From positions 1 to 37,872 of IMG/VR virus record IMGVR_UViG_2563366845_000004: a stretch of 37,872 bases of DNA. One strand, written 5' to 3'. A program made the position numbers and the translations under genes. Positions 8,486 to 37,872 of this stretch are shown one piece after another. A model generated the notes under the pieces. The model saw only the letters and a program-made list of their open reading frames with translations. It was not told the DNA's origin and made no database searches. Position 1 is the first letter of the stretch. Each line of letters starts with the position of its first letter. Source of the stretch: a virus. Its lineage: Duplodnaviria; Heunggongvirae; Uroviricota; Caudoviricetes.

Positions 8486-8577
8486 TTACGCGGGTTAACA
8501 ATTCGTGCTCTTAATAATACCAGGCATATCAGGCTGATGAACGTAAAAAAACGTTTTACATCAGTAAGATTATTATA

Positions 8578-8597
8578 TACTGTAAATATAAACAGTG
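8578..8597. promoter_or_regulatory. LexA (SOS) box TACTGTAAATATAAACAGTG upstream of the Tum/DinI-like genes
   Basis: CTGT-N8-ACAG with an AT-rich spacer matches the E. coli LexA consensus; a candidate -35 TTTACA lies at 8555..8560 and an extra ACAGTAT half-site at 8607..8613. Confidence 0.7.
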
Positions 8598-8638
8598 GTT
8601 ATGTGTACAGTATTGCTTGTGGTGTCATAGGAGGAAAA

Positions 8639-8827
8639 ATGCAGGACTATTTTTTGGAGTCTTTGAAGCTCCAGCGCATTGATTTTTTTCTTAAGCTTGT
8701 AGCGGCTAGTGAGTGTAGTGATGAAGAGAAGGGGCTGGCTCTGCAGTGGGTTTCTGAATTGACTGATGAACTCATGGCAAAAATCAGAAGCCACGAATAC
8801 AACCGCTCAATGGATGTCATCAGCTGA
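8639..8827 (+). CDS. Small SOS-regulated protein (possible Tum-like antirepressor N-terminal part)
   Basis: 62 aa, strong AGGAGG RBS, immediately downstream of the LexA box and followed 10 nt later by a DinI-like ORF. Confidence 0.5.
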   Translation: MQDYFLESLKLQRIDFFLKLVAASECSDEEKGLALQWVSELTDELMAKIRSHEYNRSMDVIS

Positions 8828-8837
8828 GGTGACTTTT

Positions 8838-9071
8838 ATGCGCATTGAAATAATGATCGATAAAGAGCAGAAAATTAGCCAGTCTACCCTGGACGCCCTT
8901 GAATCCGAGCTTTACCGCAGTCTGCGCCCCCTGTATCCCAAAACGGTAATTCGTATCCGCAAAGGTAGCTCTAACGGTGTGGAACTGACCGGACTGCAAC
9001 TGGACGAAGAAAGAAAACAAGTGATGAAAATTATGCAGAAGGTGTGGGAAGACGACAGCTGGCTGCATTAA
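8838..9071 (+). CDS. DinI-family protein (DinI/Tum C-terminal-like)
   Basis: 77 aa beginning MRIEIMIDKE... and ending ...QKVWEDDSWLH, matching the DinI fold signature; GAGGTGA RBS. Confidence 0.75.
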   Translation: MRIEIMIDKEQKISQSTLDALESELYRSLRPLYPKTVIRIRKGSSNGVELTGLQLDEERKQVMKIMQKVWEDDSWLH

Positions 9072-9079
9072 GAAATGTT

Positions 9080-9118
9080 GCCCCCAGGAGGATTCATTCT
9101 GATGGGGGCTGGTTTTGG
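9080..9118 (+). terminator. Putative terminator after the DinI-like gene
   Basis: GCCCCCA...TGGGGGC 7-bp GC stem with a 16-nt loop, followed by TGGTTTTGG. Confidence 0.35.
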
Positions 9119-9683
9119 CAACGAGTGAAACGAGGCGTAAGGTGGGGGGCATTTTGATAAGTGCTCGTTCGCTTTGTGCCAGAGGCGGAAGTTGTTACAG
9201 CTGTTGTCTTACCCAATGGGGAGCATCTCGGAAATTTTCGACCCAACGCTGCGAACGATAAAGAAATAGTGGCCGCTTGAGTTTAGGCCTAAACTGTTTC
9301 TTGTTAGAAGAAACGCTTAAGTCGGCATGCCGTGCTATCCGCTAGGGTAGGCCGGAGCTTGGCTAGTGCTTGCAAGTATGCTACAAACACATTAGCACAT
9401 ATAACATGTATTTTGCAGTACTCCTAGAGTATAATAAGGCCAGTAGTATTGAAAAAAGGGTTGTTAAGTAGACGCACAATAATTCTACAGTTCTTGGATT
9501 TGATGAATAGATGCTAAAATGTATGCTTCAATTATTCAATCTATAAGAGGGAGCAGAGAAAAAATAAGGTGGCAGGAGGTGTTAGACCACTAAATTTAAA
9601 TCGTGAGATAAATATGGAGCCATAAACCTATGGAGGGAATGGCAAAAGCTAAAATTATAGACTAAAAATGGACGGTGTGAATA

Positions 9684-9956
9684 ATGGCGATTTTTGATAA
9701 ACAGCAGGCCATAAAAAAACTAACAGAAAAAAATGCTTTATTACCATGCCATAGATGTGGGAATAAGTCATTTGGAATTGTTGATGGAGTGACTTCCTAT
9801 TCATTAGTTAATGATCCAAATATGATAGGTAGTGTGATTGTTGGAGGAGCCTCTCTGCCTGTGTTACATGTTTTTTGTGAAAACTGTGGAGCCTTAACTT
9901 CTCATTCTTTGGGCATTCTAGAACTATTACCAAAGGAAGACGAAAATGGGGGGTAG
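9684..9956 (+). CDS. Small zinc-ribbon protein (CxxC...CxxC), first gene of a two-gene cargo cassette
   Basis: 90 aa with CHRCGN ... CENCG; AT-rich; overlaps the downstream gene by 11 nt (ATGGGGGGTAG). Confidence 0.5.
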   Translation: MAIFDKQQAIKKLTEKNALLPCHRCGNKSFGIVDGVTSYSLVNDPNMIGSVIVGGASLPVLHVFCENCGALTSHSLGILELLPKEDENGG

Positions 9957-10416
9957 TACTTTTAACTCTACGGTGAATGGTGAAAAATCTCCTGCAGTAA
10001 CACCCTCGCAAGTTATTATTAATGAGGACGGGGATTTTACTGATAAAATAGTTAGACAGACTAAAGTTGAAGTTATAGTTATTAGCGATGATAAGTTGCA
10101 TATAATACTGACGAATTGCCTTGGTAGAATAACAAGTTTAAATAAATGGACTACTCCGCTTGGTATCTTAGTTACGCTTGCAGTAACTATGTTAACAACA
10201 AATTTTAAGGAATTTATCCTTAGCGCACATGTCTGGGAAGCTATGTTCTGGATTATTACAATACTCAATGTGGTATGGCTAATTAAGTCCATCCCTTACA
10301 GGCACATATGGATTGAGTTTCTTCATTTCTTTGGCAGAGGAGAACAGATGAAAAGTATTCGAGATGTTAGGCATATAATAGAAAAAATAAAGAGTGGTGA
10401 TACTGGAATTAATTGA
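9946..10416 (+). CDS. Small membrane protein, second gene of the cassette
   Basis: 156 aa with two hydrophobic helices (LGILVTLAVTMLTT; AMFWIITILNVVWLI); AGGAAG RBS; translationally coupled to the zinc-ribbon gene. Confidence 0.5.
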   Translation: MGGSTFNSTVNGEKSPAVTPSQVIINEDGDFTDKIVRQTKVEVIVISDDKLHIILTNCLGRITSLNKWTTPLGILVTLAVTMLTTNFKEFILSAHVWEAMFWIITILNVVWLIKSIPYRHIWIEFLHFFGRGEQMKSIRDVRHIIEKIKSGDTGIN

Positions 10417-11107: not shown

Positions 11108-12547
11108 ATGACGCCAAAAGTTTTTATATCATATAGTTGGAGTAGCCCAGCTCATAAGGAAAGAGTTAAAGCAATAGCTGATAGACTTTTGAGTGATGGA
11201 GTGGATGTTGTCATTGACATATATGATTTGAAGGAGGGCAATGATAAAAACGCATTCATGGAAAAAATGATTGTTGATAAAAGTATCACCAATGTGCTTG
11301 TGATGTGTGATTCAGTTTACGCAAAAAAAGCTGATAACAAACAAAGTGGGGTTGGCACAGAATCCCAGATCATCTCTCAACAAGTCTACACAAAAGTCGA
11401 ACAATCAAAATTTATACCTATTGTTTGTGAATTTGATGAGAATTCAGAACCTTGTCTTCCTGTTTTTATGAGTTCGCTAATATGGATTGACCTTTCAACA
11501 CCAGAAAAAGAAAATCAAAATTGGGAACGGTTAGTAAGGCTGCTTAATGGAAAACCAGCAGATATAAAACCTAAGCTTGGAAAAAGACCAAGTTATTTAG
11601 ATAGTGGGCAATATGATCCGGTGAGTGAACCACACGCAAAATTTAATAGCTTGAAACAAGCTGTTTTGCAAAATAGGGCAGGTGTTAGTTATTATCGGCG
11701 TGATTTCGTTGATTCAGTAGTCAAGTACCTTGACGGGATGAGAATCCGAGCTCGCCCAGAGCAAAATGATTTACAAAGCATGGGTAGGAAAATAATTAGC
11801 GACGTTGCTGCCATGAAGCCTATCAGGGATTATGTGTGTGAATGGATAACTCTTGAGGCAGAGTTTACGATGCAGGATGAATTTTCAACAGAACTAGTAA
11901 AGTTCTTTGAAAAAGTTCTGTTACTAACCGAAGCTCCTAGCGATGTCAGTTCATGGCAATTAAACTGGTATGATGCACAAAAGGTATTTGCATACGAAAT
12001 TTTCTTATATTCAGTTGCTATATTGATTAGATTAGAGAAGTTTCAATTAGTACGTGCGATTTTATCTGCCAGATTCCTTTCTGGTGATAGGCAGTTACCA
12101 CCGGAACATAGACTCGTGTCAATTAGCGCTTTCTTAGCTGATTCTGAAACGCTACAGGCAGGTTTTGAAGAAGATATAAGGTATTACTCTCCAGTTGCAG
12201 AGCTAATTAAAAGAAATGCAGATAGGGAAGATATTACCTTTTCTGATCTTATGCAGGCTGATGTGCTAGTTCTTTTTTATTCATTTTGTAATGATGGTGT
12301 CTATTGGTATCCATGCACTATTCATTATGCGAGTTATAATTATAGACCTGAACTATTTTTAAGAGCGACACAGCATAAGTATTTTGAATATTTAGCAATG
12401 ATTGCCGGGATAGCGTCAGCGCAAGAGATCAAATTGAAGGTTAAGGCCGGCGCTCAGAGTATGCATAATTCAGGGGTTAGATATGGACGTATGGGGACTG
12501 GTTTTGAAAGTATGATGAACGCCGATAACCTTGATTTTATAAAATGA
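11108..12547 (+). CDS. SEFIR/TIR-domain protein with an uncharacterised C-terminal domain (candidate single-gene antiphage effector)
   Basis: 479 aa; N-terminus KVFISYSWSSPAHKERVKAIADRLLSDGVDVVIDIYDL...NVLVMCDSVY fits the SEFIR/TIR (STIR) signature; moderately AT-rich; convergent with the portal gene. Confidence 0.65.
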   Translation: MTPKVFISYSWSSPAHKERVKAIADRLLSDGVDVVIDIYDLKEGNDKNAFMEKMIVDKSITNVLVMCDSVYAKKADNKQSGVGTESQIISQQVYTKVEQSKFIPIVCEFDENSEPCLPVFMSSLIWIDLSTPEKENQNWERLVRLLNGKPADIKPKLGKRPSYLDSGQYDPVSEPHAKFNSLKQAVLQNRAGVSYYRRDFVDSVVKYLDGMRIRARPEQNDLQSMGRKIISDVAAMKPIRDYVCEWITLEAEFTMQDEFSTELVKFFEKVLLLTEAPSDVSSWQLNWYDAQKVFAYEIFLYSVAILIRLEKFQLVRAILSARFLSGDRQLPPEHRLVSISAFLADSETLQAGFEEDIRYYSPVAELIKRNADREDITFSDLMQADVLVLFYSFCNDGVYWYPCTIHYASYNYRPELFLRATQHKYFEYLAMIAGIASAQEIKLKVKAGAQSMHNSGVRYGRMGTGFESMMNADNLDFIK

Positions 12548-19985: not shown

Positions 19986-20118
19986 CGGTGATCTGAACGC
20001 GTTGCTGGATGAAACGGAGGCCGCCTGGGCGGTCTGTGCAGACAAAGTGGACATGATTATTGCGTGTCAGGAGCGAAACAGTGAACAAACCACAATCCCT
20101 GCGCCACGCCCTCAATAA
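19828..20118 (+). CDS. LysC / Rz1-like o-spanin lipoprotein, embedded out of frame in lysB
   Basis: GTG start with GAGGAA RBS; lipobox LTLSGC; begins inside lysB in another frame and extends past its stop. Confidence 0.65.
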   Translation: MRTRIYAAGLILLCLLTLSGCGNVRHSPEVQLTVSGCPRVTPCRLDQETPRTNGDLNALLDETEAAWAVCADKVDMIIACQERNSEQTTIPAPRPQ

Positions 20119-20512
20119 AGCGGTGCCTTATGTCCGCAATAACCCGGACAAACTGCATCTGTTTGTGGATAACGGTTCGCTGGTTGCTACGGGGGCCAGC
20201 TCCATGTCATGGGAGTACCGTTACACCCTGAATGTGGTGATTGAGGATTTCAGTGGCGACCAGAATCTGCTGATGGCCCCGGTTTTGCTGTGGCTGCGTG
20301 ATAACCAGCCCGATGCCATCAATAACCCGGCGTTACGGGAAAAACTATTCACCTTTGAGGTGGATATTCTGCGCAACGATGTCTGTGATATCAGCCTTAA
20401 CCTGCAACTGACGGAACGTGTGCTGGTCAGCACTGACGGCACTGTGTCCAGCGTTGAAGCTGTAGCGGAACCCGATGAACCTGAAGAAATGTGGACGGTG
20501 AAACGTGGCTGA
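20081..20512 (+). CDS. Tail completion protein (P2 gpR-like)
   Basis: ORF 20060..20512; probable GTG start at 20081 preceded by AGGAG. Confidence 0.75.
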   Translation: MNKPQSLRHALNKAVPYVRNNPDKLHLFVDNGSLVATGASSMSWEYRYTLNVVIEDFSGDQNLLMAPVLLWLRDNQPDAINNPALREKLFTFEVDILRNDVCDISLNLQLTERVLVSTDGTVSSVEAVAEPDEPEEMWTVKRG

Positions 20513-20951
20513 ACTGCAGAAGGTGGACGACTGGCTGAGTGCCTTGCTGGCGAATCTGGAGCCAGCCGCAAGAAGCCGCATGATGCGCCAGCTGGCGCAG
20601 GAACTGCGCCGGACACAGCAGCAGAATATCAGGATGCAGCGCAACCCTGACGGCAGCAGCTATGAACCGCGACGGGTAACAGCACGCAGTAAAAAAGGCC
20701 GTATCAAACGTCAGATGTTTGCAAAGCTGCGCACCACAAAATACCTGAAAACTGCCGCCAGCGCCGATTCTGCCAGCGTGCAGTTTGAAGGTAAGGTGCA
20801 GCGTATTGCCCGCGTTCACCATTACGGCCTGCGTGATCGCGTCAGTCGTAAAGGGCCGGAGGTCCGTTACGCAGAGCGTAAGCTATTGGGTATCCACGAT
20901 AAAGAATATTATCAAATCAAGGATACCCTATTTGAATGGTTATCTAAATAA
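20505..20951 (+). CDS. Tail completion / virion morphogenesis protein (P2 gpS-like)
   Basis: 148 aa, GTG start overlapping the gpR stop; last gene of the head/lysis late operon. Confidence 0.75.
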   Translation: MAELQKVDDWLSALLANLEPAARSRMMRQLAQELRRTQQQNIRMQRNPDGSSYEPRRVTARSKKGRIKRQMFAKLRTTKYLKTAASADSASVQFEGKVQRIARVHHYGLRDRVSRKGPEVRYAERKLLGIHDKEYYQIKDTLFEWLSK

Positions 20952-20976
20952 TATAAAAATACATCTGTATTTTTTC

Positions 20977-21858
20977 TTATTTCATTTCGTGTGGCATATT
21001 TATGGCTTTGATTTTTTCGTGGTAATGATTAAACTCAATATGAGTATTGGTAAAATTAGATTCAAATGTATTCATTAAATTGGAATATAGTGATTCATAT
21101 GATAAGGATACTTTTTTTCCATTTTTTTCTGCAGTTGTGCTAATGTACCTATGTACTGCAGAAAAAAGAAAATGACCTCTAAGCCACTTTCTGTATTCTA
21201 TCGATTTTGATTTGAAAGATGAATCGATGTTATCTGGTTCCACACCTAATTTTTCAATAATGGTGTTTTTGTAATCCGTGATTTTTTGCTCGCAAATTTC
21301 ATTTGATTTTCTAGATTTCATGAAACGATCTGCACTGTCACCAATAACTGAAATGCCTTTTCTATAAATATGATTGTATATATCAAGTTTTATTAGGGGT
21401 TCCATTTTGGTATAAAAGTCTTCTGTCCAAGAATCGATGTTGACATCGTTCATTATCTTTTGCGGTAATTTCCCGAGAGTTTTTATTGCCTTATATATGC
21501 CTGTTTTGTCAATAAATGTGTTTTCGATGGAGTGCCCATAAGTTTTTACAATACGACTATCAGCGTTTTCTTCATTTTCAAATGTAGTGAAGTCTGCATC
21601 ACATGCAATAATAATTTGAAGATCTTCATCAGTAACTCTATCAATATATTTTTTTAATTCTTCACAGCCGCCAACATCTTTGATTTCAACCTTTAATGAA
21701 CTAGCTTTATTAAAGATGATTTCCCAAAAGCAAATATCATCTGGGCCTTCAACATAAACCATGGCTTCAGCTTGGTAAAATAAATTCATTACATTTTCTG
21801 CTTCGGCAGAATAATGGAAATCATCCATGAACCAATTTCTCCATATCAAAGATTGCAT
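20977..21858 (-). CDS. Toprim/DUF4435-like nuclease partner (AriB-like) of a split OLD-family system
   Basis: 293 aa, AT-rich; N-terminal VYVEGPDDICFW (Toprim E-G..D) and IIACDADFT (DxD-like); start may be M1 (21858) or M11 (21828), overlapping or abutting the upstream ATPase gene. Confidence 0.55.
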   Translation of the reverse strand: MQSLIWRNWFMDDFHYSAEAENVMNLFYQAEAMVYVEGPDDICFWEIIFNKASSLKVEIKDVGGCEELKKYIDRVTDEDLQIIIACDADFTTFENEENADSRIVKTYGHSIENTFIDKTGIYKAIKTLGKLPQKIMNDVNIDSWTEDFYTKMEPLIKLDIYNHIYRKGISVIGDSADRFMKSRKSNEICEQKITDYKNTIIEKLGVEPDNIDSSFKSKSIEYRKWLRGHFLFSAVHRYISTTAEKNGKKVSLSYESLYSNLMNTFESNFTNTHIEFNHYHEKIKAINMPHEMK

Positions 21859-23080
21859 TTCGATATTTAGAGGCCACTTCTGGTGAATGCGTAGCGGCGA
21901 TAATTTGTGCGTTAGGGTTAAGTTGTTTGATTGCAGGTATTATTTTTCGTTGCCATGCAATATGTAGTGATAATTCTGGTTCATCAGTAAGATAGATGAA
22001 AGGTTTTTTTTGCTGTAGCAAAGTTTCAATAAAAAGAATTAATAGCTGTTTTTCTCCAGACGATAAATTACTATGGCTAATCGGCCCATGCTCGTTTTCT
22101 ATTACTAGCTCACCGGAGATAAAATTAAATTTTTTATCGGTTATGAACTCATGTAATGTTTCTAAAAATAGATTTATAGGAAGAAATATGTTTTTTATTT
22201 CCTCCTCGGATTTTAAAGACATCTTTATAATTCTTTGCGTCTTTCGTAATGCCTCAAATGATCTGTAATCTACATTTAAAATATTTCTGTTGTTTTTTTC
22301 TGCAAGTCGTAGTTCTTCAAATGTATTGGCAATAGATTCAACGTGAAAGTTAATCTTCTTTCTGACATCGCTATCAAAAGCTCCAAGTTGAGAATATGCA
22401 GCTATTAAATTTCTACGTTCTTTTTCTTTATCAAAAGAAAAGTTAAATGTGTCATCGATACCATCTTCTTTACTATAAAGAATAGAAGCAAGAACCTCTT
22501 TCTGTAATTTTGCAGAAACATCACGAGCTCTTTGTGATAAGTAAAGCTGATATTTTGTTAGATTCTGCAATAATTGTTCTAATCGGTAATCAACGGGGTT
22601 GATTAATTTTGAGCCATATTTGTCTCTGATTTCAAAATCTTCACCGCTTCTAAGTCGGTAAACTGATAGAGAAGATAAAGCAACTAATTTATCTAGCTCT
22701 AACTTAAGTTTTTCAACGTCTTCCTGATATTTTCTCCTCATATATATAGGCAGCCTACGATCTTCAAAGGATCTGATAATATATTTCTTTCTAGAAATTG
22801 TATATTCAAACGTAGGCAAAGCCTTAGTTATGTCAAATTTACTCACAACTTTTATTGTTTTAGTTTTGCTTCCTTCTTTTATTTTTATTGTTACATTATC
22901 AAAACTATTCTCATTTAACGATTCAAGTTCTAATGCCAGAACTGAGTGAAGAATATTCATAAAGGTTGTTTTACCGGTCCCATTTCGACCAATAATAATA
23001 TTTACATCTTCATTAAATGAACATGATGCATTTAGTCTTCCCCAAAAACCTTCAATCTTGACACTAGATAATCTAAACAT
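21821..23080 (-). CDS. OLD/AAA_21-type ABC ATPase (AriA-like)
   Basis: 419 aa; Walker A GRNGTGKTT, ABC signature LSSGEKQ, Walker B FIYLTDEPELSLH, H-loop ATHSPE; AAGGA RBS; AT-rich. Confidence 0.7.
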   Translation of the reverse strand: MFRLSSVKIEGFWGRLNASCSFNEDVNIIIGRNGTGKTTFMNILHSVLALELESLNENSFDNVTIKIKEGSKTKTIKVVSKFDITKALPTFEYTISRKKYIIRSFEDRRLPIYMRRKYQEDVEKLKLELDKLVALSSLSVYRLRSGEDFEIRDKYGSKLINPVDYRLEQLLQNLTKYQLYLSQRARDVSAKLQKEVLASILYSKEDGIDDTFNFSFDKEKERRNLIAAYSQLGAFDSDVRKKINFHVESIANTFEELRLAEKNNRNILNVDYRSFEALRKTQRIIKMSLKSEEEIKNIFLPINLFLETLHEFITDKKFNFISGELVIENEHGPISHSNLSSGEKQLLILFIETLLQQKKPFIYLTDEPELSLHIAWQRKIIPAIKQLNPNAQIIAATHSPEVASKYRNAIFDMEKLVHG

Positions 23081-23116
23081 AGGAATCCTTTATTTAGTCC
23101 ATGAGTAAATGCACTT

Positions 23117-23134
23117 TGTATCATAACTGGCACA
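23117..23134. promoter_or_regulatory. Late promoter element (TGT-N12-ACA dyad) upstream of the V operon
   Basis: Exact TGT-N12-ACA in the 100-bp gap between the divergent AriA-like gene and V. Confidence 0.45.
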
Positions 23135-23180
23135 AAACTAAAGAGTTTTTTTATCAATCTTAAATCAGCATGATTAAATT

Positions 23181-23759
23181 ATGAACGCACAATTAACCGA
23201 AATCATGCGCCTTATCACCAACCTGATCCGCACTGGTGTAGTCACCGAAGTGGACCGGGAGAATTGGCTTTGCCGGGTGAAAACAGGCGACCTTGAAACC
23301 AACTGGATTAACTGGCTGACACTGCGCGCGGGCAAATCGCGCACCTGGTGGAAACCGTCTGTGGGCGAGCAGGTTGTGCTGTTCAGCCTGGGTGGCAATC
23401 TGGAAACCGCGTTTGCCCTGCCTGCAGTCTACTCAAATCAGTTTCCGCCACCTTCAGACTCTGAGGACGGCAACGTGGTTGAGTACCCGGACGGTGGCTG
23501 GTTTGAATACGAACCCGCTACCGGGCGCTGGTATGTCAGGGGAATCAAATCCATGGTCATTGAAGCTGCCGACAACATCACCCTGAAAACCAGTGAGTTT
23601 GTGCTGGAGGCCGACCGCACGCGTATTAACAGCGAAATGGTAATCAATGGTGGCGTTACCCAGGGCGGCGGTGCAATGAGTTCTAACGGGATCGTGGTTG
23701 ATGCGCATCAGCATACTGGCGTCCTGAAAGGCGGCGATACAACCGGAGGCCCGGTATGA
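23181..23759 (+). CDS. Baseplate spike / assembly protein V (P2 gpV-like)
   Basis: 192 aa with the gpV-like N-terminal region (…RAGKSRTWWKPSVGEQV…). Confidence 0.85.
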   Translation: MNAQLTEIMRLITNLIRTGVVTEVDRENWLCRVKTGDLETNWINWLTLRAGKSRTWWKPSVGEQVVLFSLGGNLETAFALPAVYSNQFPPPSDSEDGNVVEYPDGGWFEYEPATGRWYVRGIKSMVIEAADNITLKTSEFVLEADRTRINSEMVINGGVTQGGGAMSSNGIVVDAHQHTGVLKGGDTTGGPV

Positions 23760-24115
23760 CGCTTTATAGCGGGATGAACAATATCAGCGGTAAAGCCATT
23801 ACTGATATTGACCATCTGCGCCAGTCGGTGCGGGACATTCTGCTGACGCCACAGGGTAGCCGCATTGCCCGTCGTGAATATGGTTCCCTGCTGTCGGCAC
23901 TGATAGACCAGCCACAAAATCCGGCATTACGCCTGCAGGTCATGTCGGCAGTGTATGTGGCGCTGAGTCGCTGGGAGCCACGGCTGACGCTGGATTCCAT
24001 CACCATCAACAGCAACTTTGACGGTTCTATGGTGGTGGAGCTGACCGGGCGGCGGAATAACGGTGTACCTGTGTCCCTTTCCGTATCAACAGGAGCAGAG
24101 AATGGCAGTGATTGA
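23756..24115 (+). CDS. Baseplate protein W (P2 gpW-like)
   Basis: 119 aa, start overlaps the gpV stop; P2 order. Confidence 0.8.
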   Translation: MTLYSGMNNISGKAITDIDHLRQSVRDILLTPQGSRIARREYGSLLSALIDQPQNPALRLQVMSAVYVALSRWEPRLTLDSITINSNFDGSMVVELTGRRNNGVPVSLSVSTGAENGSD

Positions 24116-34708: not shown

Positions 34709-34798
34709 TTCTTCGCAATGGAGAACTTTTAAGTTTTCAAAATGGAATAATGCGGTATCATTATTGTGAATTTAGCAAAAATGGGGAGAACTCGAAAA

Positions 34799-35017
34799 AT
34801 GATGATTTGCCCACTGTGTGGAAGTGCCGCCCATACTCGCAGCAGTTTTCAGGTATCTTCATTGACCAAAGAGCGTTACAACCAGTGCCAGAACATTAAC
34901 TGCAGCCATACTTTTGTTACCCATGAAACTTTTGTTCGTTCGATTGCAACGCCAAAAGAGTCAAATCCGGTTCAGCCGCATCCAATGAAATCAGGACAGG
35001 TGGCGCTCTCTCTTTGA
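34799..35017 (+). CDS. ogr: Ogr/Delta-family zinc-finger late-gene transcription activator
   Basis: 72 aa from MMICPLCGSAAH...CQNINCSHTF (CxxC-N22-CxxxxC), P2 Ogr length; GGGAGA RBS; stop abuts the attR core. Confidence 0.85.
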   Translation: MMICPLCGSAAHTRSSFQVSSLTKERYNQCQNINCSHTFVTHETFVRSIATPKESNPVQPHPMKSGQVALSL

Positions 35018-35252: not shown

Positions 35253-36938
35253 TTATCCTAATCCTGGCCATACCATGACGATGATTGTCCCTGCCAGCGT
35301 CAGCAGGACGTTGGCGATTGCGTAAGTGCCCGCATAGCCCAGCGCCGGGATATTACTGCGAGCTGTATCACTGATGATCTCCATTGCCGGCGCGCAGGTG
35401 CGTGCGCCCATCATTGCGCCGAACAACAGTGCGCGGTTCATTCGCAATACATAAGCACCGAACAAGAAGCAGATAACCACTGGCACCAGACTGACAATCA
35501 ATCCGGCAATCAACATCTGACCGCCAATCGCGCCCAGGCCGTTATTAATACCGCTACCAGCGCTCAGACCAACGCCTGCCATAAACACCATCAAGCCGAA
35601 CTCCTTCACCATGCTTAATGCACCCTGCGGAATGTAACCGAAGGTCGGGTGGTTAGCACGCATAAAGCCCAGCATAATTCCGGCGAATAACAACCCGGCA
35701 GCGTTCCCCATGCCGAAACTGAATGTGCTGAACTGGAAGGTGATCATCCCGATCATCAGCCCAATAACAAAGAAGGCGCAGAATGCCAGCAAGTCAGTGA
35801 CCTGGCTGTGAATCGAGATAAAGCCGATGCGATCGGCGATGGTTTTTACCCGGCGGGCATCGCCGCTGACTTGTAAAACGTCACCTTTGTTAAGCACGAC
35901 GTTGTCATCAATCGGCATCTCAATCTGGCTACGAATGACGCGGTTAAGGAAGCAACCGTGATCGGTCAACTTCAGTTGTGCCAGGCGTTTGCCAACAGCG
36001 TTATGGTTTTTAACGACCACTTCTTCAGTGACGATACGCATGTCGAGAAGGTCACGATCGAAAACTTCTTTGCCATTACGGAAACTGGGATCGAGTCGGG
36101 CGTGGGCGTCAGGATAGCCTACCAACGCTATTTCATCGCCCATTTGTAGTACGGCATCACCGTCTGGATTTGCCAGAATCCCGTTACGCCGAATACGTTC
36201 AATGTAGCAGCCGGTTTGTCGATAAATACCCAGTTCACGCAGATTTTTGCCGTCGGTCCAGGCTACCAGCTCCGGGCCGACGCGGTAGGCGCGGATCACC
36301 GGCAAATAAACCTTACGGTTGGCATCTGTGTCCAGGCCACGTTCGCGGGCGATTTGCTGGGCGCTGGTCTGTAAGTCCTGATGCTGCAATTTCGGCAAGT
36401 AACGCGCACCAACAATCAAACTCACCAGACCGATTAAATAGGTTAAGGCATACCCGAGGCTCAGATTATCCAGTGCCAGTGAGAGCTGCCTGCTTTCCAT
36501 GCCGGAATGACGCAGTGTATCGCCAGCACCGACCAGAACCGGTGTCGACGTCATAGAGCCTGCTAACATACCGGCCGTCAGGCCAATATCCCAGCCAAAC
36601 AGCTTACCTAACCCTAAGGCGATCACCAGCGCACTGCCAACCATCACCAGTGCTAACATTAGGTAATTTTTCCCATCGCGAAAAAAAATGGAAAAAAAGT
36701 TCGGTCCGGCTTCGACCCCGACGCAGAAAATAAACAGCATAAAGCCAAGATTAAGCGCGTCGGTGTTAATGCTGAAATGTTGTTGGCCTAATAACAGCGA
36801 TACGACTAAAACGCCAATGGAATTACCCAGTTGGATCGAACCAAGTCGTAATTTCCCGAGACATAGCCCAAGCGCGAGGACCACAAATAATAACAGAATG
36901 TAATTCCCATTTAACAATTCGGCGACGTTTATATTCAC
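35253..36938 (-). CDS. ybjL: Host putative transport protein YbjL (AAE-family permease with central regulatory domains)
   Basis: 561 aa with multi-pass membrane repeats at both ends and a central soluble region; followed by ybjM and grxA as in E. coli. Confidence 0.8.
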
Positions 36939-37207
36939 GGAGGCTAACTTCTTGTTTACTAGTAAGCTGTTGAAAGAAATGGTAATTTACGATAATGTTT
37001 TTTACCAGAATTCAGGGCGCAGATTCATTCAGCGCACCTAAACGATAGTAAAGTAACAATATATTTTACTAGTGTAATCACATTAGGTATCAACGGCTAT
37101 ATGAATTGCGTTGGCCTATATTAGCATGGAATGCGAAGCGGCTTTATCTTACTGAACGCCACACTGGCGAAAAATGTGTTCGATAGACGCAGTGTCAGGA
37201 GGAACGA

Positions 37208-37585
37208 GTGAAACATAAACAACGTTGGGCGGGGGCAATCTGCTGTTTTGTCCTCTTCATTGTGGTGTGCCTTTTTCTGGCGACGCATATGAAAGGCGCT
37301 TTTCGGGCTGCCGGGCATCCTGAAATCGGCTTGCTGTTTTTCATTCTTCCTGGAGCAGTTGCCAGCTTCTTTTCACAGCGTAGAGAAGTCCTGAAACCTC
37401 TGTTTGGCGCAATGCTGGCGGCACCCTGTTCAATGCTTATTATGCGGCTGTTTTTTTCACCGACGCGCTCATTCTGGCAAGAGCTGGCATGGTTATTAAG
37501 TGCGGTGTTCTGGTGTGCGCTGGGGGCACTGTGTTTCTTATTTATCAGTAGTTTGTTTAAACCACAGCACAGAAAAAATCAATAA
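37208..37585 (+). CDS. ybjM: Host inner membrane protein YbjM
   Basis: 125 aa, four hydrophobic helices, sits between ybjL and grxA. Confidence 0.7.
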   Translation: MKHKQRWAGAICCFVLFIVVCLFLATHMKGAFRAAGHPEIGLLFFILPGAVASFFSQRREVLKPLFGAMLAAPCSMLIMRLFFSPTRSFWQELAWLLSAVFWCALGALCFLFISSLFKPQHRKNQ

Positions 37586-37605
37586 AGCCCTCAACGCGAG
37601 GGCTT
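37585..37605. terminator. Bidirectional terminator between convergent ybjM and grxA
   Basis: AAGCCCTC-AACGC-GAGGGCTT hairpin; a T-run follows on the minus strand. Confidence 0.5.
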
Positions 37606-37614
37606 GTCAGACGA

Positions 37615-37872
37615 TCAGGCGTCCAGATTCTCTTTCACCCATGCAGCAAAATCGGTATAGCCGCCGATATGTTGCTGATCGACAAAAATCTGCGGCACGG
37701 TTTCTACGGGTTTACCTGCCTTTTGTTGTAGATCTTCTTTAGTGATCCCTTCCGCACGAATATCAACATACTGATACTGAAAATCATCGCGTTCATTGCT
37801 CAATTTCTCAGCCAGATCTTTTGCACGCACACAGTAAGGGCAACCCGGACGACCAAAAATAACGGTTTGCAT
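37615..37872 (-). CDS. grxA: Glutaredoxin 1
   Basis: 85 aa starting MQTVIFGRPGCPYCVRAKDLAEKL... with the CPYC active site; its start codon is the last triplet of the window. Confidence 0.9.
   Translation of the reverse strand: MQTVIFGRPGCPYCVRAKDLAEKLSNERDDFQYQYVDIRAEGITKEDLQQKAGKPVETVPQIFVDQQHIGGYTDFAAWVKENLDA

What the first reader, a model, noticed from the sequence alone, without database searches (positions are those of the whole stretch)
20977..23180. Split OLD-like ATPase + Toprim/DUF4435 pair (PARIS-like) inserted between tail gene S and the V late promoter
Two overlapping minus-strand genes, sharply AT-rich against the GC-richer structural genes, interrupt an otherwise contiguous late region. 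The upstream gene has complete ABC-ATPase motifs (Walker A, LSSGE, Walker B, H-loop). The downstream gene carries Toprim-like E-G..D and DxD motifs. This is the architecture of the two-gene PARIS system (AriA/AriB), an abortive-infection system that senses phage anti-restriction proteins. The S-V junction is not the classical P2 cargo site, and the classical Z/fun position between G and FI is empty here, so this may be a third cargo hotspot in P2-like phages or a divergent OLD-family variant.
Basis: partly seen in the sequence, partly recalled or inferred. Interest (0 to 1): 0.75.

Follow-up and report, generated by a model that had tools for sequence, protein, structure and literature searches.

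The report
PARIS defence pair in P2-like prophage
A P2-like prophage of E. coli carries an intact two-gene PARIS-type anti-phage system (AriA ATPase plus AriB Toprim nuclease) between tail genes S and V; both the system type and this cargo site (the P2 'orf30' region) were already known, so it is a correct call of modest novelty.

Summary
Two overlapping minus-strand genes (ariA 21821-23080, 419 aa; ariB 20977-21828, most likely 283 aa rather than 293) lie in a 31% GC block between gpS and gpV (55-58% GC).

The PARIS reading is supported by every test I could run:
- AriA matches AAA_21/AAA_15 and the PADLOC AriA model (7.7e-39). AriB matches DUF4435 (3e-25) and the PADLOC AriB model (2.6e-24).
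- All ABC-ATPase motifs are present, and all five Toprim acidic residues align with those of the solved AriB.
- AlphaFold models of both proteins have the solved PARIS AriA and AriB chains as their best PDB matches.
- dN/dS is about 0.05 for both genes.

The pair is only 15-26% identical to the two PARIS systems tested so far (E. coli B185 and O42), so it is an untested clade.

P2 itself carries nonessential orf30 at this junction, and a 2010 paper lists the orf30 region as one of three variable regions of P2-like phages. In a sample of E. coli prophages, 24 of 54 S-V junctions hold cargo. About 16 of 30 viral contigs carrying this AriB clade have it at S-V, in the same orientation.

Verdict: a new member of a known kind. 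The trigger and the RNA target are inferred, not shown.

The parts
21821..23080 (-). ariA: 419-aa ABC-type ATPase, the sensor/scaffold subunit of a PARIS system
   Evidence: Pfam AAA_21 9.9e-23, AAA_15 4e-18, SMC_N 1.2e-13. PADLOC AriA PDLC04164 7.7e-39. phmmer against PDB hits AriA 8ux9_B/8v45_A at 1.3e-16. Walker A, signature, Walker B and H-loop are present and invariant in a 35-sequence alignment. The top 14 PDB hits of the AF2 model are all AriA chains, E 7e-19 to 4e-16, TM 0.56-0.65. dN/dS 0.04-0.06.
20977..21828 (-). ariB: 283-aa DUF4435/Toprim nuclease, the effector subunit (the longest ORF runs to 21858, 293 aa)
   Evidence: Pfam DUF4435 3.1e-25. PADLOC AriB PDLC02983 2.6e-24 and PDLC04165 1.3e-9. 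Invariant E27, D31, D77, D79, E102 align with B185 AriB E26, D30, D88, E90, E122. AF2 model pLDDT 92.7; best PDB matches are AriB chains 8ux9_A and 8v46_D, E 1.3e-5, TM 0.54. dN/dS 0.06-0.07. The start at 21828 comes from homologue lengths and RefSeq annotation.
21821..21828 (-). ATGGATGA overlap of the ariA stop and the ariB start (probable translational coupling)
   Evidence: Read directly from the sequence. The same 8-bp overlap is seen in homologous pairs in Brenneria, Yersinia and Shewanella and in the phage contigs.
20892..20951 (+). Cassette-specific, AT-rich 3' end of tail-completion gene S (last ~18 codons); left boundary of the exchanged block
   Evidence: GC is 0.27 here against 0.58 for the rest of S. 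gpS is near-identical among relatives up to '...AERxLLG' and then differs by cassette type.
20955..20974 (.). Weak A/U-rich hairpin with U-runs on both strands, in the 25-bp convergent gap between the S stop and the ariB stop; candidate bidirectional terminator
   Evidence: strand folding gives -5.1 and -6.2 kcal/mol, z about -2.8. It was not found by the G+C-based terminator scan. P2 has its O-operon terminator at the equivalent place. Function is inferred only.
23081..23180 (.). 100-bp divergent control region between ariA and V. It is cassette-specific and must hold both the ariAB promoter (RBS AAAGGA upstream of the ATG) and the pV late promoter
   Evidence: Alignment with the empty site, another cargo and P2 shows that homology resumes only at the V ATG. 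The spacer is about 100 bp in all PARIS alleles at this site. No strong sigma-70 consensus was found here.
23117..23134 (.). TGT-N12-ACA box: the P2-type late-activator (Ogr) binding site of promoter pV, centred about 55 bp upstream of the V ATG
   Evidence: Read from the sequence. The box is conserved in the empty-site phage and in all 10 other PARIS-bearing S-V loci examined, 53-65 bp upstream of the ariA ATG. P2 annotates its pV activator site at the equivalent position.
20505..20951 (+). Gene S (tail completion), left flank
   Evidence: Annotated as gpS in the matching phage records. 38% identical to P2 gpS.
23181..23759 (+). Gene V (baseplate assembly), right flank
   Evidence: Annotated as gpV in the matching records.

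Best explanation
This is a two-gene PARIS (phage anti-restriction-induced system) cassette carried as accessory cargo by a P2-like prophage of E. coli. It sits in the known variable 'orf30' slot between tail genes S and V and is transcribed against the late operons.

Proposed mechanism, by analogy with E. coli B185 PARIS and therefore inferred:
1. AriA, an ABC ATPase, assembles into a hexameric scaffold that holds AriB monomers inactive.
2. An incoming phage protein binds AriA in an ATP-dependent way. The trigger could be an anti-restriction DNA mimic such as Ocr, or a different trigger specific to this clade.
3. AriB is released and dimerises.
4. Its Toprim site cleaves host tRNAs in the anticodon loop. 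Translation stops and the infection aborts.

This protects the lysogen population, and hence the prophage, from competing phages.

Shown here: gene architecture, family membership by sequence and by fold, intact catalytic residues, purifying selection, and the cassette-like distribution.
Inferred: assembly, trigger, RNA target, expression in the lysogen, and the defence phenotype.
For: - Sequence family: Pfam AAA_21/AAA_15 and DUF4435, all well above the curated cut-offs. The best PADLOC models are AriA (7.7e-39) and AriB (2.6e-24). The next-best for the ATPase are PtuA (1.8e-23) and mad3 (2.1e-21), and for the second protein mad4 (0.039).
- Solved relatives: AriA matches 8ux9/8v45 at 1.3e-16 by sequence.
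- Folds: the AriA model's top 14 PDB hits are all PARIS AriA chains (E ~1e-18, TM 0.56-0.65), ahead of retron PtuA (E ~5e-13, TM 0.35-0.45) and Rad50/SMC. The AriB model (pLDDT 92.7) has only two hits below E 1e-3, both AriB chains from PARIS complexes.
- Active sites: Walker A K37, LSSGE, Walker B D366/E367 and H398 are invariant across 35 homologues. AriB E27/D31/D77/D79/E102 are invariant across 36 homologues and align with the B185 residues E26/D30/D88/E90/E122 that Burman et al. 2024 describe as the metal-binding Toprim site.
- Operon: an 8-bp ATGGATGA overlap, conserved in every homologous pair examined.
- Selection: dN/dS 0.04-0.07 for both genes.
- Accessory status: relatives with about 92% identical flanks have a 68-bp S-V gap with no insert. 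The same site holds other cargo such as TIR, FRG and DUF6216 proteins in other prophages.
- Mechanism of the family: Rousset 2022, Burman 2024, Belukhina 2025.
Against: - No experiment exists on this clade.
- It is very distant from both tested systems. AriB against B185 gives BLASTP E 2e-4 over the Toprim part only, and against O42 E 0.37. Neither phmmer nor a 36-sequence profile finds the solved AriB by sequence. Fold identity is only 15-20% and TM 0.5-0.65.
- Burman et al. name R28 and R31 of B185 AriB as contacts with AriA. They have no arginine counterpart here: the aligned stretch is E27-G-P-D-D31. The interface may therefore differ.
- AriA is 45 residues shorter than B185 AriA.
- Burman et al. 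report that the trigger-sensing pore residues are poorly conserved between clades, so Ocr sensing cannot be assumed.
- No convincing sigma-70 promoter was found for ariAB, so expression in the lysogen is unproven.
- The O42 PARIS was silent from its native promoter.
Confidence: 0.88

Rival explanations
1. It belongs to the OLD-like ABC-ATPase/Toprim superfamily but works differently from B185 PARIS. For example, the released nuclease might degrade DNA as OLD or Gabija do, or cut a different RNA set, after a trigger unrelated to anti-restriction proteins.
For: Identity to the tested PARIS systems is very low. The OLD C-terminal Toprim regions 6njw and 6nk8 are the next structural hits after AriB. 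Trigger-sensing residues vary between PARIS clades. The AriB residues that contact AriA in B185 are not conserved here.
Against: Both proteins are closest to AriA/AriB by every measure. OLD hits are weak (E 6e-3 to 1e-2, TM 0.21-0.34) and GajA is weaker still (E 0.14). No Toprim_OLD Pfam match appeared at E<=0.1. AriA and AriB co-evolve as one family across 11 clades according to Burman 2024.
Confidence: 0.08
2. It is a Septu- or retron-type PtuA ATPase module, or a MADS3-4 or AbiL-like pair, mislabelled as PARIS.
For: PtuA and mad3 models hit the ATPase at 1e-21 to 1e-23. The best NCBIfam hit is PtuA at 4.8e-18. Retron PtuA structures are the second tier of fold hits.
Against: The AriA model scores 15 orders of magnitude better than PtuA or mad3. 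The NCBIfam PtuA score of 65 bits is far below its 500-bit cut-off. The partner gene is DUF4435/Toprim: it is not an HNH protein (PtuB), there is no reverse transcriptase nearby, and mad4 scores only 0.039. AriA fold hits clearly outrank PtuA.
Confidence: 0.02
3. It is an inactive relic or a purely selfish addiction cassette that persists at a recombination-prone site without giving the lysogen any defence.
For: No promoter could be assigned. The allele is rare, in 18 of 5426 complete E. coli genomes. One tested PARIS (O42) was silent from its own promoter. A decayed prophage still retains a PARIS pair.
Against: Both ORFs are intact in every copy, dN/dS is 0.04-0.07, and the catalytic residues are invariant over homologues down to 28% identity. 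Rousset 2022 showed that deleting either gene of B185 PARIS was non-toxic, which argues against toxin-antitoxin behaviour. At least six divergent alleles are kept at the same site in the same orientation.
Confidence: 0.04

Closest known systems
PARIS (AriA/AriB) of E. coli B185 ('PARIS-2'; PDB 8UX9, 8V45-8V49)
   Same: Two co-oriented genes, ATPase first. AriA is an AAA_15/AAA_21 ABC ATPase with all motifs, and AriB is a DUF4435 protein with a Toprim core. All five Toprim acidic residues and the GHS[IL]EN and RGH motifs align. These chains are the best structural matches for both proteins. Both systems are carried by a mobile viral element.
   Different: Only 15-20% identity over the folds. 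AriA is 419 aa against 464. The AriB arginines R28/R31 that contact AriA are absent. The carrier is a P2-like phage at the S-V junction rather than the psu-int hotspot of a P4 satellite. Trigger and targets are untested here.
PARIS-1 of E. coli O42 (Rousset 2022)
   Same: Same two-domain architecture and the same Pfam families.
   Different: AriB is essentially unalignable by BLASTP (E 0.37), so it belongs to a different clade. PARIS-1 is also P4-borne.
P2 orf30 region (S-V junction), one of three classical variable regions of P2-like phages
   Same: Same position, and same orientation against the late operons. The cargo sits between the terminator after S and the Ogr-dependent pV promoter, and is AT-rich and nonessential.
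   Different: P2 Orf30 is a single 261-aa protein with no Pfam or PADLOC match. Here the cargo is a recognisable two-gene defence system.
P2 Old (class 1 OLD nuclease) and Gabija GajA
   Same: All combine an ABC ATPase with a Toprim nuclease in phage defence. The literature places PARIS as class 4 of the OLD-like systems.
   Different: Old and GajA are single polypeptides with a Toprim_OLD domain, and Gabija adds a helicase. Here there are two proteins, the nuclease matches DUF4435, and structural matches to OLD and GajA are weak.

Membership tests
PARIS (AriA/AriB) | Two adjacent co-oriented genes, ATPase then DUF4435 (or a fusion of the two) | tested here: met
   ariA 21821-23080 and ariB 20977-21828 are on the same strand with an 8-bp overlap.
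PARIS (AriA/AriB) | AriA is an AAA_15/AAA_21 ABC ATPase with intact Walker A, signature, Walker B and H-loop | tested here: met
   Pfam AAA_21 82 bits and AAA_15 67 bits, both above cut-off. The motifs are present and invariant. K37 and E367 correspond to B185 K39 and E393.
PARIS (AriA/AriB) | AriA is closer to AriA than to other defence ABC ATPases (PtuA, MAD3, GajA, OLD) | tested here: met
   PADLOC AriA 7.7e-39 against PtuA 1.8e-23 and mad3 2.1e-21. The top 14 PDB fold hits are all AriA.
PARIS (AriA/AriB) | AriB carries DUF4435 | tested here: met
   PF14491, 89.8 bits against a cut-off of 27, covering 234 of 238 profile positions. PADLOC AriB 2.6e-24.
PARIS (AriA/AriB) | AriB has the Toprim metal-binding acidic residues (B185: E26, D30, D88, E90, E122) | tested here: met
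   E27, D31, D77, D79 and E102 are invariant in 36 homologues and align to the B185 residues (residue list from PMC11464382).
PARIS (AriA/AriB) | AriB fold resembles the solved AriB | tested here: met
   Foldseek: 8ux9_A E 1.3e-5 and 8v46_D E 4.3e-5, probability 1.00, TM 0.54/0.51. These are the only hits below E 1e-3. The TM-score is moderate, so the C-terminal domain packing may differ.
PARIS (AriA/AriB) | AriA hexamer sequesters up to three AriB monomers | not testable with these tools
   No multimer prediction is available here. The AriB R28/R31 contact residues of B185 are not conserved.
PARIS (AriA/AriB) | Activated by a phage anti-restriction protein such as Ocr | not testable with these tools
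   This needs co-expression or phage escape mutants. The literature says trigger-sensing pores vary between clades.
PARIS (AriA/AriB) | Effector cleaves host tRNAs (Lys-UUU, Thr-UGU, Asn-GUU in B185) and defence is abortive | not testable with these tools
   Known only for B185.
OLD nucleases (class 1, P2 Old type) | A single polypeptide with an N-terminal ABC ATPase and a C-terminal Toprim_OLD domain | tested here: not met
   Two separate genes. No Toprim_OLD Pfam hit at E<=0.1. OLD C-terminal structures match only weakly (E 6e-3, TM 0.26-0.34).
Gabija | GajA (fused ATPase-Toprim) together with a GajB UvrD-like helicase | tested here: not met
   There is no helicase gene in the 2.2-kb block. 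GajA 8x5i matches the AriB model only at E 0.14.
Septu / retron PtuAB | PtuA ATPase with an HNH nuclease PtuB (with or without a reverse transcriptase) | tested here: not met
   The partner is DUF4435, with no HNH or RT hit. The NCBIfam PtuA score is 65 bits against a cut-off of 500.
P2 'orf30 region' accessory-gene slot | Foreign, nonessential gene(s) between S and the pV promoter, absent from close relatives | tested here: met
   P2 annotation. Empty site in 4LV2017 and different cargo in Kp4865-2. 24 of 54 sampled E. coli junctions are occupied by varied cargo. Literature.

The most novel reading that the evidence does not exclude
This may be a distinct PARIS lineage that has lived for a long time in the S-V slot of P2-like phages, with its own trigger and tRNA-target spectrum. 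Its promoter shares the 100-bp region with, and may overlap, the Ogr-activated pV late promoter: a TATGAT -10-like element lies inside the TGT-N12-ACA box. On this reading the prophage's own late switch would modulate the abortive-infection system during induction, for example by shutting PARIS off so that the phage does not abort its own lytic cycle.
Probability: 0.12. Interest if true: 0.5.

Novelty: new member of a known kind. Interest (0 to 1): 0.25.

Why it matters
It adds little that is conceptually new. PARIS is a characterised defence family, PARIS has already been listed in P2-like phages at the gpA-gpQ hotspot (Rousset 2022, Table S5), and S-V is the old 'orf30' variable region.

Its practical value is threefold:
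- It flags a PARIS clade very distant from the two tested systems. NCBIfam has no model for it and PHROGs lists it as unknown function, so public records call the genes 'AAA family ATPase' and 'DUF4435'.
- It shows that this clade recurs at S-V as at least six divergent alleles that are swapped between near-identical phage backbones. That gives natural material for mapping what sets trigger and target specificity.
- It shows that the S-V slot in E. coli prophages holds many defence-like genes (TIR, FRG, DUF2971, DUF6216 and others). The hotspot papers read here named only gpA-gpQ, Z/fun and the tail-cI site, or lumped the late genes together.

Tried and rejected
- Sequence-only searches of PDB with AriB, both as a single sequence and as a 36-sequence profile, found no AriB. 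The link needed fold comparison and direct pairwise or profile alignment.
- The sigma-70 and terminator consensus scan gave fewer promoter-like sites than shuffled sequence, and none in the 100-bp ariA-V spacer. The ariAB promoter therefore could not be assigned.
- The TATGAT inside the Ogr box is present in only some alleles, so I did not build on it.
- The repeat search found no terminal inverted repeats, att-like repeats or target-site duplications at the block's edges. Transposition or integrase-mediated insertion was therefore rejected in favour of recombination in the S and V flanks.
- No tRNA genes were found in the window and no Rfam families in 20000-24000.
- NCBIfam has no PARIS model, and its best hit (PtuA) is far below cut-off.
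- P2 Orf30 and the 503-aa cargo of Kp4865-2 gave no informative Pfam or PADLOC hit, so it could not be tested whether those cargos are defence genes.
- The OLD, Gabija, Septu and MADS readings were considered and rejected (see membership tests).
- The capped metagenome and genome collection scans, and the 1.84-billion-protein representative search, were not used. The answer was already clear without them.
Full report
**What is there**

The window is an E. coli chromosome segment holding a P2-like prophage. Its right end is 100% identical to E. coli ybjL-ybjM-grxA. The late genes are annotated L-X-holin-endolysin-lysA/B/C-R-S ... V-W-J-I-H in the closest phage record, Escherichia phage vB_EcoM-813R9 (Peduoviridae).

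Between S (20505-20951, +) and V (23181-23759, +) lie two minus-strand ORFs: 21821-23080 (419 aa) and 20977-21858 (293 aa as the longest ORF). GC drops from 0.55-0.60 to 0.30-0.34 across this stretch and is 31.1% for 20952-23180.

Two refinements:
- The second gene almost certainly starts at Met11 (21828), giving 283 aa. RefSeq annotates it that way and all 50 homologues are 266-285 aa, most of them 277-283. This start creates an ATGGATGA overlap with the ariA stop codon.
- The AT-rich block begins inside S at about 20892.

**What the two proteins are**

The 419-aa protein:
- It matches Pfam AAA_21 (9.9e-23), AAA_15 (4e-18) and SMC_N.
- Its best PADLOC model is AriA at 7.7e-39. PtuA (1.8e-23) and mad3 (2.1e-21) follow.
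- It has Walker A (G31-T38), LSSGE (339-343), Walker B (FIYLTDE, 361-367) and an H-loop (THS, 397-399). All are invariant in 35 homologues of 54-83% identity.
- By sequence it hits the solved AriA (8ux9_B, 8v45_A) at 1.3e-16.
- An AlphaFold model (pLDDT 80, pTM 0.74) has PARIS AriA chains as its top 14 PDB matches (E 7e-19 to 4e-16, TM 0.56-0.65). Retron PtuA (E ~5e-13, TM 0.35-0.45) and Rad50/SMC rank below.

The 283-aa protein:
- It matches DUF4435 (3.1e-25, 89.8 bits against a cut-off of 27) and the PADLOC AriB models (2.6e-24 and 1.3e-9).
- Plain sequence searches of PDB do not find AriB, even with a 36-sequence profile.
- A high-confidence model (pLDDT 92.7, pTM 0.89) has only two hits below E 1e-3. 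Both are AriB chains of PARIS complexes: 8ux9_A (1.3e-5) and 8v46_D (4.3e-5), TM 0.54/0.51. OLD C-terminal regions come next.
- Residues E27, D31, D77, D79 and E102 are invariant across homologues down to 28% identity.
- Pairwise and profile alignment to B185 AriB puts them opposite E26, D30, D88, E90 and E122. The GHS[IL]EN and RGH motifs also align. Burman et al. 2024 (PMC11464382) describe those B185 residues as the two-metal Toprim site and report that E26A abolishes defence.

Both genes are under purifying selection, with dN/dS 0.04-0.07 against near-identical copies and 0.06 for ariA against a 79%-identical allele.

Every definable sequence and fold criterion for PARIS is therefore met. 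Assembly, trigger, target and phenotype cannot be tested with these tools.

**How far it is from the tested systems**

Rousset et al. 2022 validated two PARIS systems, from E. coli B185 and O42, both carried by P4 satellites. The AriB here aligns to B185 AriB only over the Toprim part (26% identity, E 2e-4) and to O42 AriB not significantly (E 0.37). Fold-level identity to the solved chains is 15-20%.

AriA is 45 residues shorter than B185 AriA. The AriB arginines R28 and R31 that bridge to AriA in B185 have no counterpart here. Burman et al. also report 11 PARIS clades and say that the trigger-sensing pore residues are poorly conserved. This is therefore a separate, untested clade, and sensing of Ocr should not be assumed.

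One weak hint comes from the phmmer alignment, which places an RRK patch (R115-R116-K117; R116 is near-invariant in the clade) opposite B185 R116, a pore residue. That part of the alignment is of low confidence.

**The site**

- The P2 reference record annotates 'Orf30; nonessential' on the minus strand, between the putative O-operon terminator after S and the pV activator-binding site.
- Lynch et al. 2010 (PMC3091744) state that genes not found in P2 are commonly found in three regions of P2-like phages: the TO region, the Z region and orf30.
- The R18C paper (PMC6823313) notes another replacement there.
- Recent hotspot papers name gpA-gpQ, Z/fun and a tail-cI site. A 2026 preprint adds hotspots within the late genes, 'downstream of GpL', holding 16% of P2 systems.
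- Rousset's Table S5 already lists PARIS in the gpA-gpQ hotspot of P2-like prophages.

**Anatomy of the exchanged block**

- Left edge: close relatives such as Klebsiella phage 4LV2017 have only 68 bp between S and V. gpS is near-identical up to '...AERxLLG' (residue ~129). Its last ~18 residues then differ with each cargo type and are encoded by AT-rich DNA, with GC 0.17-0.37 in ten PARIS-bearing loci.
- Right edge: homology resumes exactly at the V start codon. Each cargo type brings its own sequence for the pV core promoter, and only the TGT-N12-ACA activator box is kept (window 23117-23134).
- No terminal repeats or target duplications flank the block. Exchange by recombination within S and V is the likely route; this is inferred.
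- A weak A/U hairpin (20955-20974, -5 to -6 kcal/mol) lies in the 25-bp convergent gap between the S and ariB stop codons.
- The ariAB promoter must lie in the 100-bp spacer shared with pV, but no consensus promoter was found there.

**Distribution**

- The exact cassette (98% identity) occurs in 18 of 5426 complete E. coli genomes. It is always chromosomal, and where checked it lies at S-V. It also occurs in one phage record.
- This S/V backbone occurs in 1045 genomes. In an evenly spaced sample, 24 of 54 junctions with both flanks were occupied. The cargo included TIR, FRG, DUF2971, DUF6216 (also in E. coli B derivatives), DUF5677, P-loop NTPase and PcfJ proteins, and hypotheticals. This is a rough figure, because only inserts up to about 2.2 kb are joined.
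- A profile scan of IMG/VR found 30 loci of this AriB clade. About 16 are at the S-V junction of P2-like phages, all in the same orientation, with AriB identity to the window of 100, 70, 63, 54, 46 and 43-44%. Three are at gpA-gpQ and two lie beside cI/int.
- L026 and L027 share the window's backbone (S 93-94%, V 92%, I 98%) but carry an allele with AriA 62% and AriB 43% identity.
- Elsewhere the pair lies on a MobA-bearing contig in Brenneria, beside cI in a Yersinia P2-like prophage, and in a Shewanella chromosomal island.
- AriA is more conserved than AriB across the family.

**Mechanism proposed**

By analogy with B185 PARIS, the steps would be:
1. AriA forms a hexamer that holds AriB monomers.
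2. A phage protein binds AriA in an ATP-dependent way.
3. AriB is freed and dimerises.
4. AriB cuts specific host tRNAs, which stops translation and aborts the infection.

The parts list and the intact catalytic sites are shown here. All dynamic steps are inferred. I put about 0.88 on 'a functional PARIS-family defence module', and somewhat less (about 0.6) on tRNA cleavage specifically. The trigger is open.

**Verdict**

This is a correct identification of a known kind of system at a known variable locus. It is a new, untested member rather than a new kind, so interest is low to moderate.

Noticed in passing
window 11108-12547 (+): The classical gpA-gpQ (old/tin) hotspot of the same prophage carries a 479-aa bSEFIR defence protein (PADLOC PDLC03957 4.6e-104; Pfam SEFIR and TIR_2 ~5e-15). 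The prophage therefore holds two recognisable defence systems in two hotspots.
   Followed up: partly
window 8486-10416: Other small cargo ORFs lie in the gpA-gpQ region: a DinI-like protein (8766-9071, PF06183 4.5e-22), a 90-aa Cys-rich ORF with a sub-threshold Lar restriction-alleviation hit (9684-9956, E 1e-3, 19.5 bits against a cut-off of 28.6), and a 156-aa ORF with no hits (9946-10416).
   Followed up: partly
window 20892-20951; L011-L027 S genes: The last ~18 residues of the essential tail-completion protein gpS, after the conserved 'LLG', are re-coded by AT-rich DNA with every cargo or allele change. One example is IHDKEYYQIKDTLFEWLSK here against VNDDVEAMTRDIILQWLAG at the empty site. 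The left recombination breakpoint thus recurs at one codon, and the gpS C-terminal tail appears to tolerate almost any sequence.
   Followed up: partly
L026, L027 (IMG/VR contigs) against the window: These phage backbones are almost identical to the window (S 93-94%, V 92%, I 98%) but carry a very different PARIS allele at S-V (AriA 62%, AriB 43%). PARIS has apparently been replaced by PARIS.
   Followed up: partly
E. coli genomes, hits H55-H103: The S-V slot of this prophage lineage holds many other cargo genes: TIR-domain, FRG-domain, DUF2971, DUF5677, P-loop NTPase, PcfJ and DUF6216 proteins. DUF6216 is also present in E. coli B derivatives such as T7 Express. Most are not established defence genes.
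   Followed up: no
L003 2158-3669 (+) (Klebsiella phage Kp4865-2): The S-V junction here holds a 503-aa P-loop protein on the same strand as the late genes. It has no significant Pfam or PADLOC family and its function is unknown.
   Followed up: partly
L004 1940-2725 (-) (phage P2 Orf30): The classical P2 Orf30 (261 aa) has no Pfam or PADLOC match at E<=0.01. Its start codon lies only 14 bp from the pV activator site, so its promoter must also overlap pV.
   Followed up: partly
L006 (E. coli GDSC2227PM, NZ_CP135595): This is a decayed P2-like prophage: only a portal pseudogene fragment remains and the early-to-S genes are missing. It still keeps an intact divergent PARIS pair next to V, and a DUF4041 gene beside cI.
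   Followed up: no
window 23120-23125 (minus strand TATGAT) within 23117-23134: A -10-like hexamer for ariA lies inside the palindromic Ogr box of pV. Similar TATGAT or TATGGT elements occur in the box of several other PARIS alleles but not all. Possible cross-talk between late activation and ariAB transcription is untested.
   Followed up: partly
L014 (IMGVR_UViG_2778261454_000011): On this contig ogr lies next to ariA, and P/Q follow lysB. This is a rearranged or misassembled P2-like contig.
   Followed up: no
window 35253-37872: This is host chromosome: ybjL (an Asp-Al_Ex/TrkA_C transporter), ybjM and grxA, 100% identical to E. coli. The right end of the prophage therefore lies near 35.0-35.25 kb, just after ogr (34766-35017).
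   Followed up: partly
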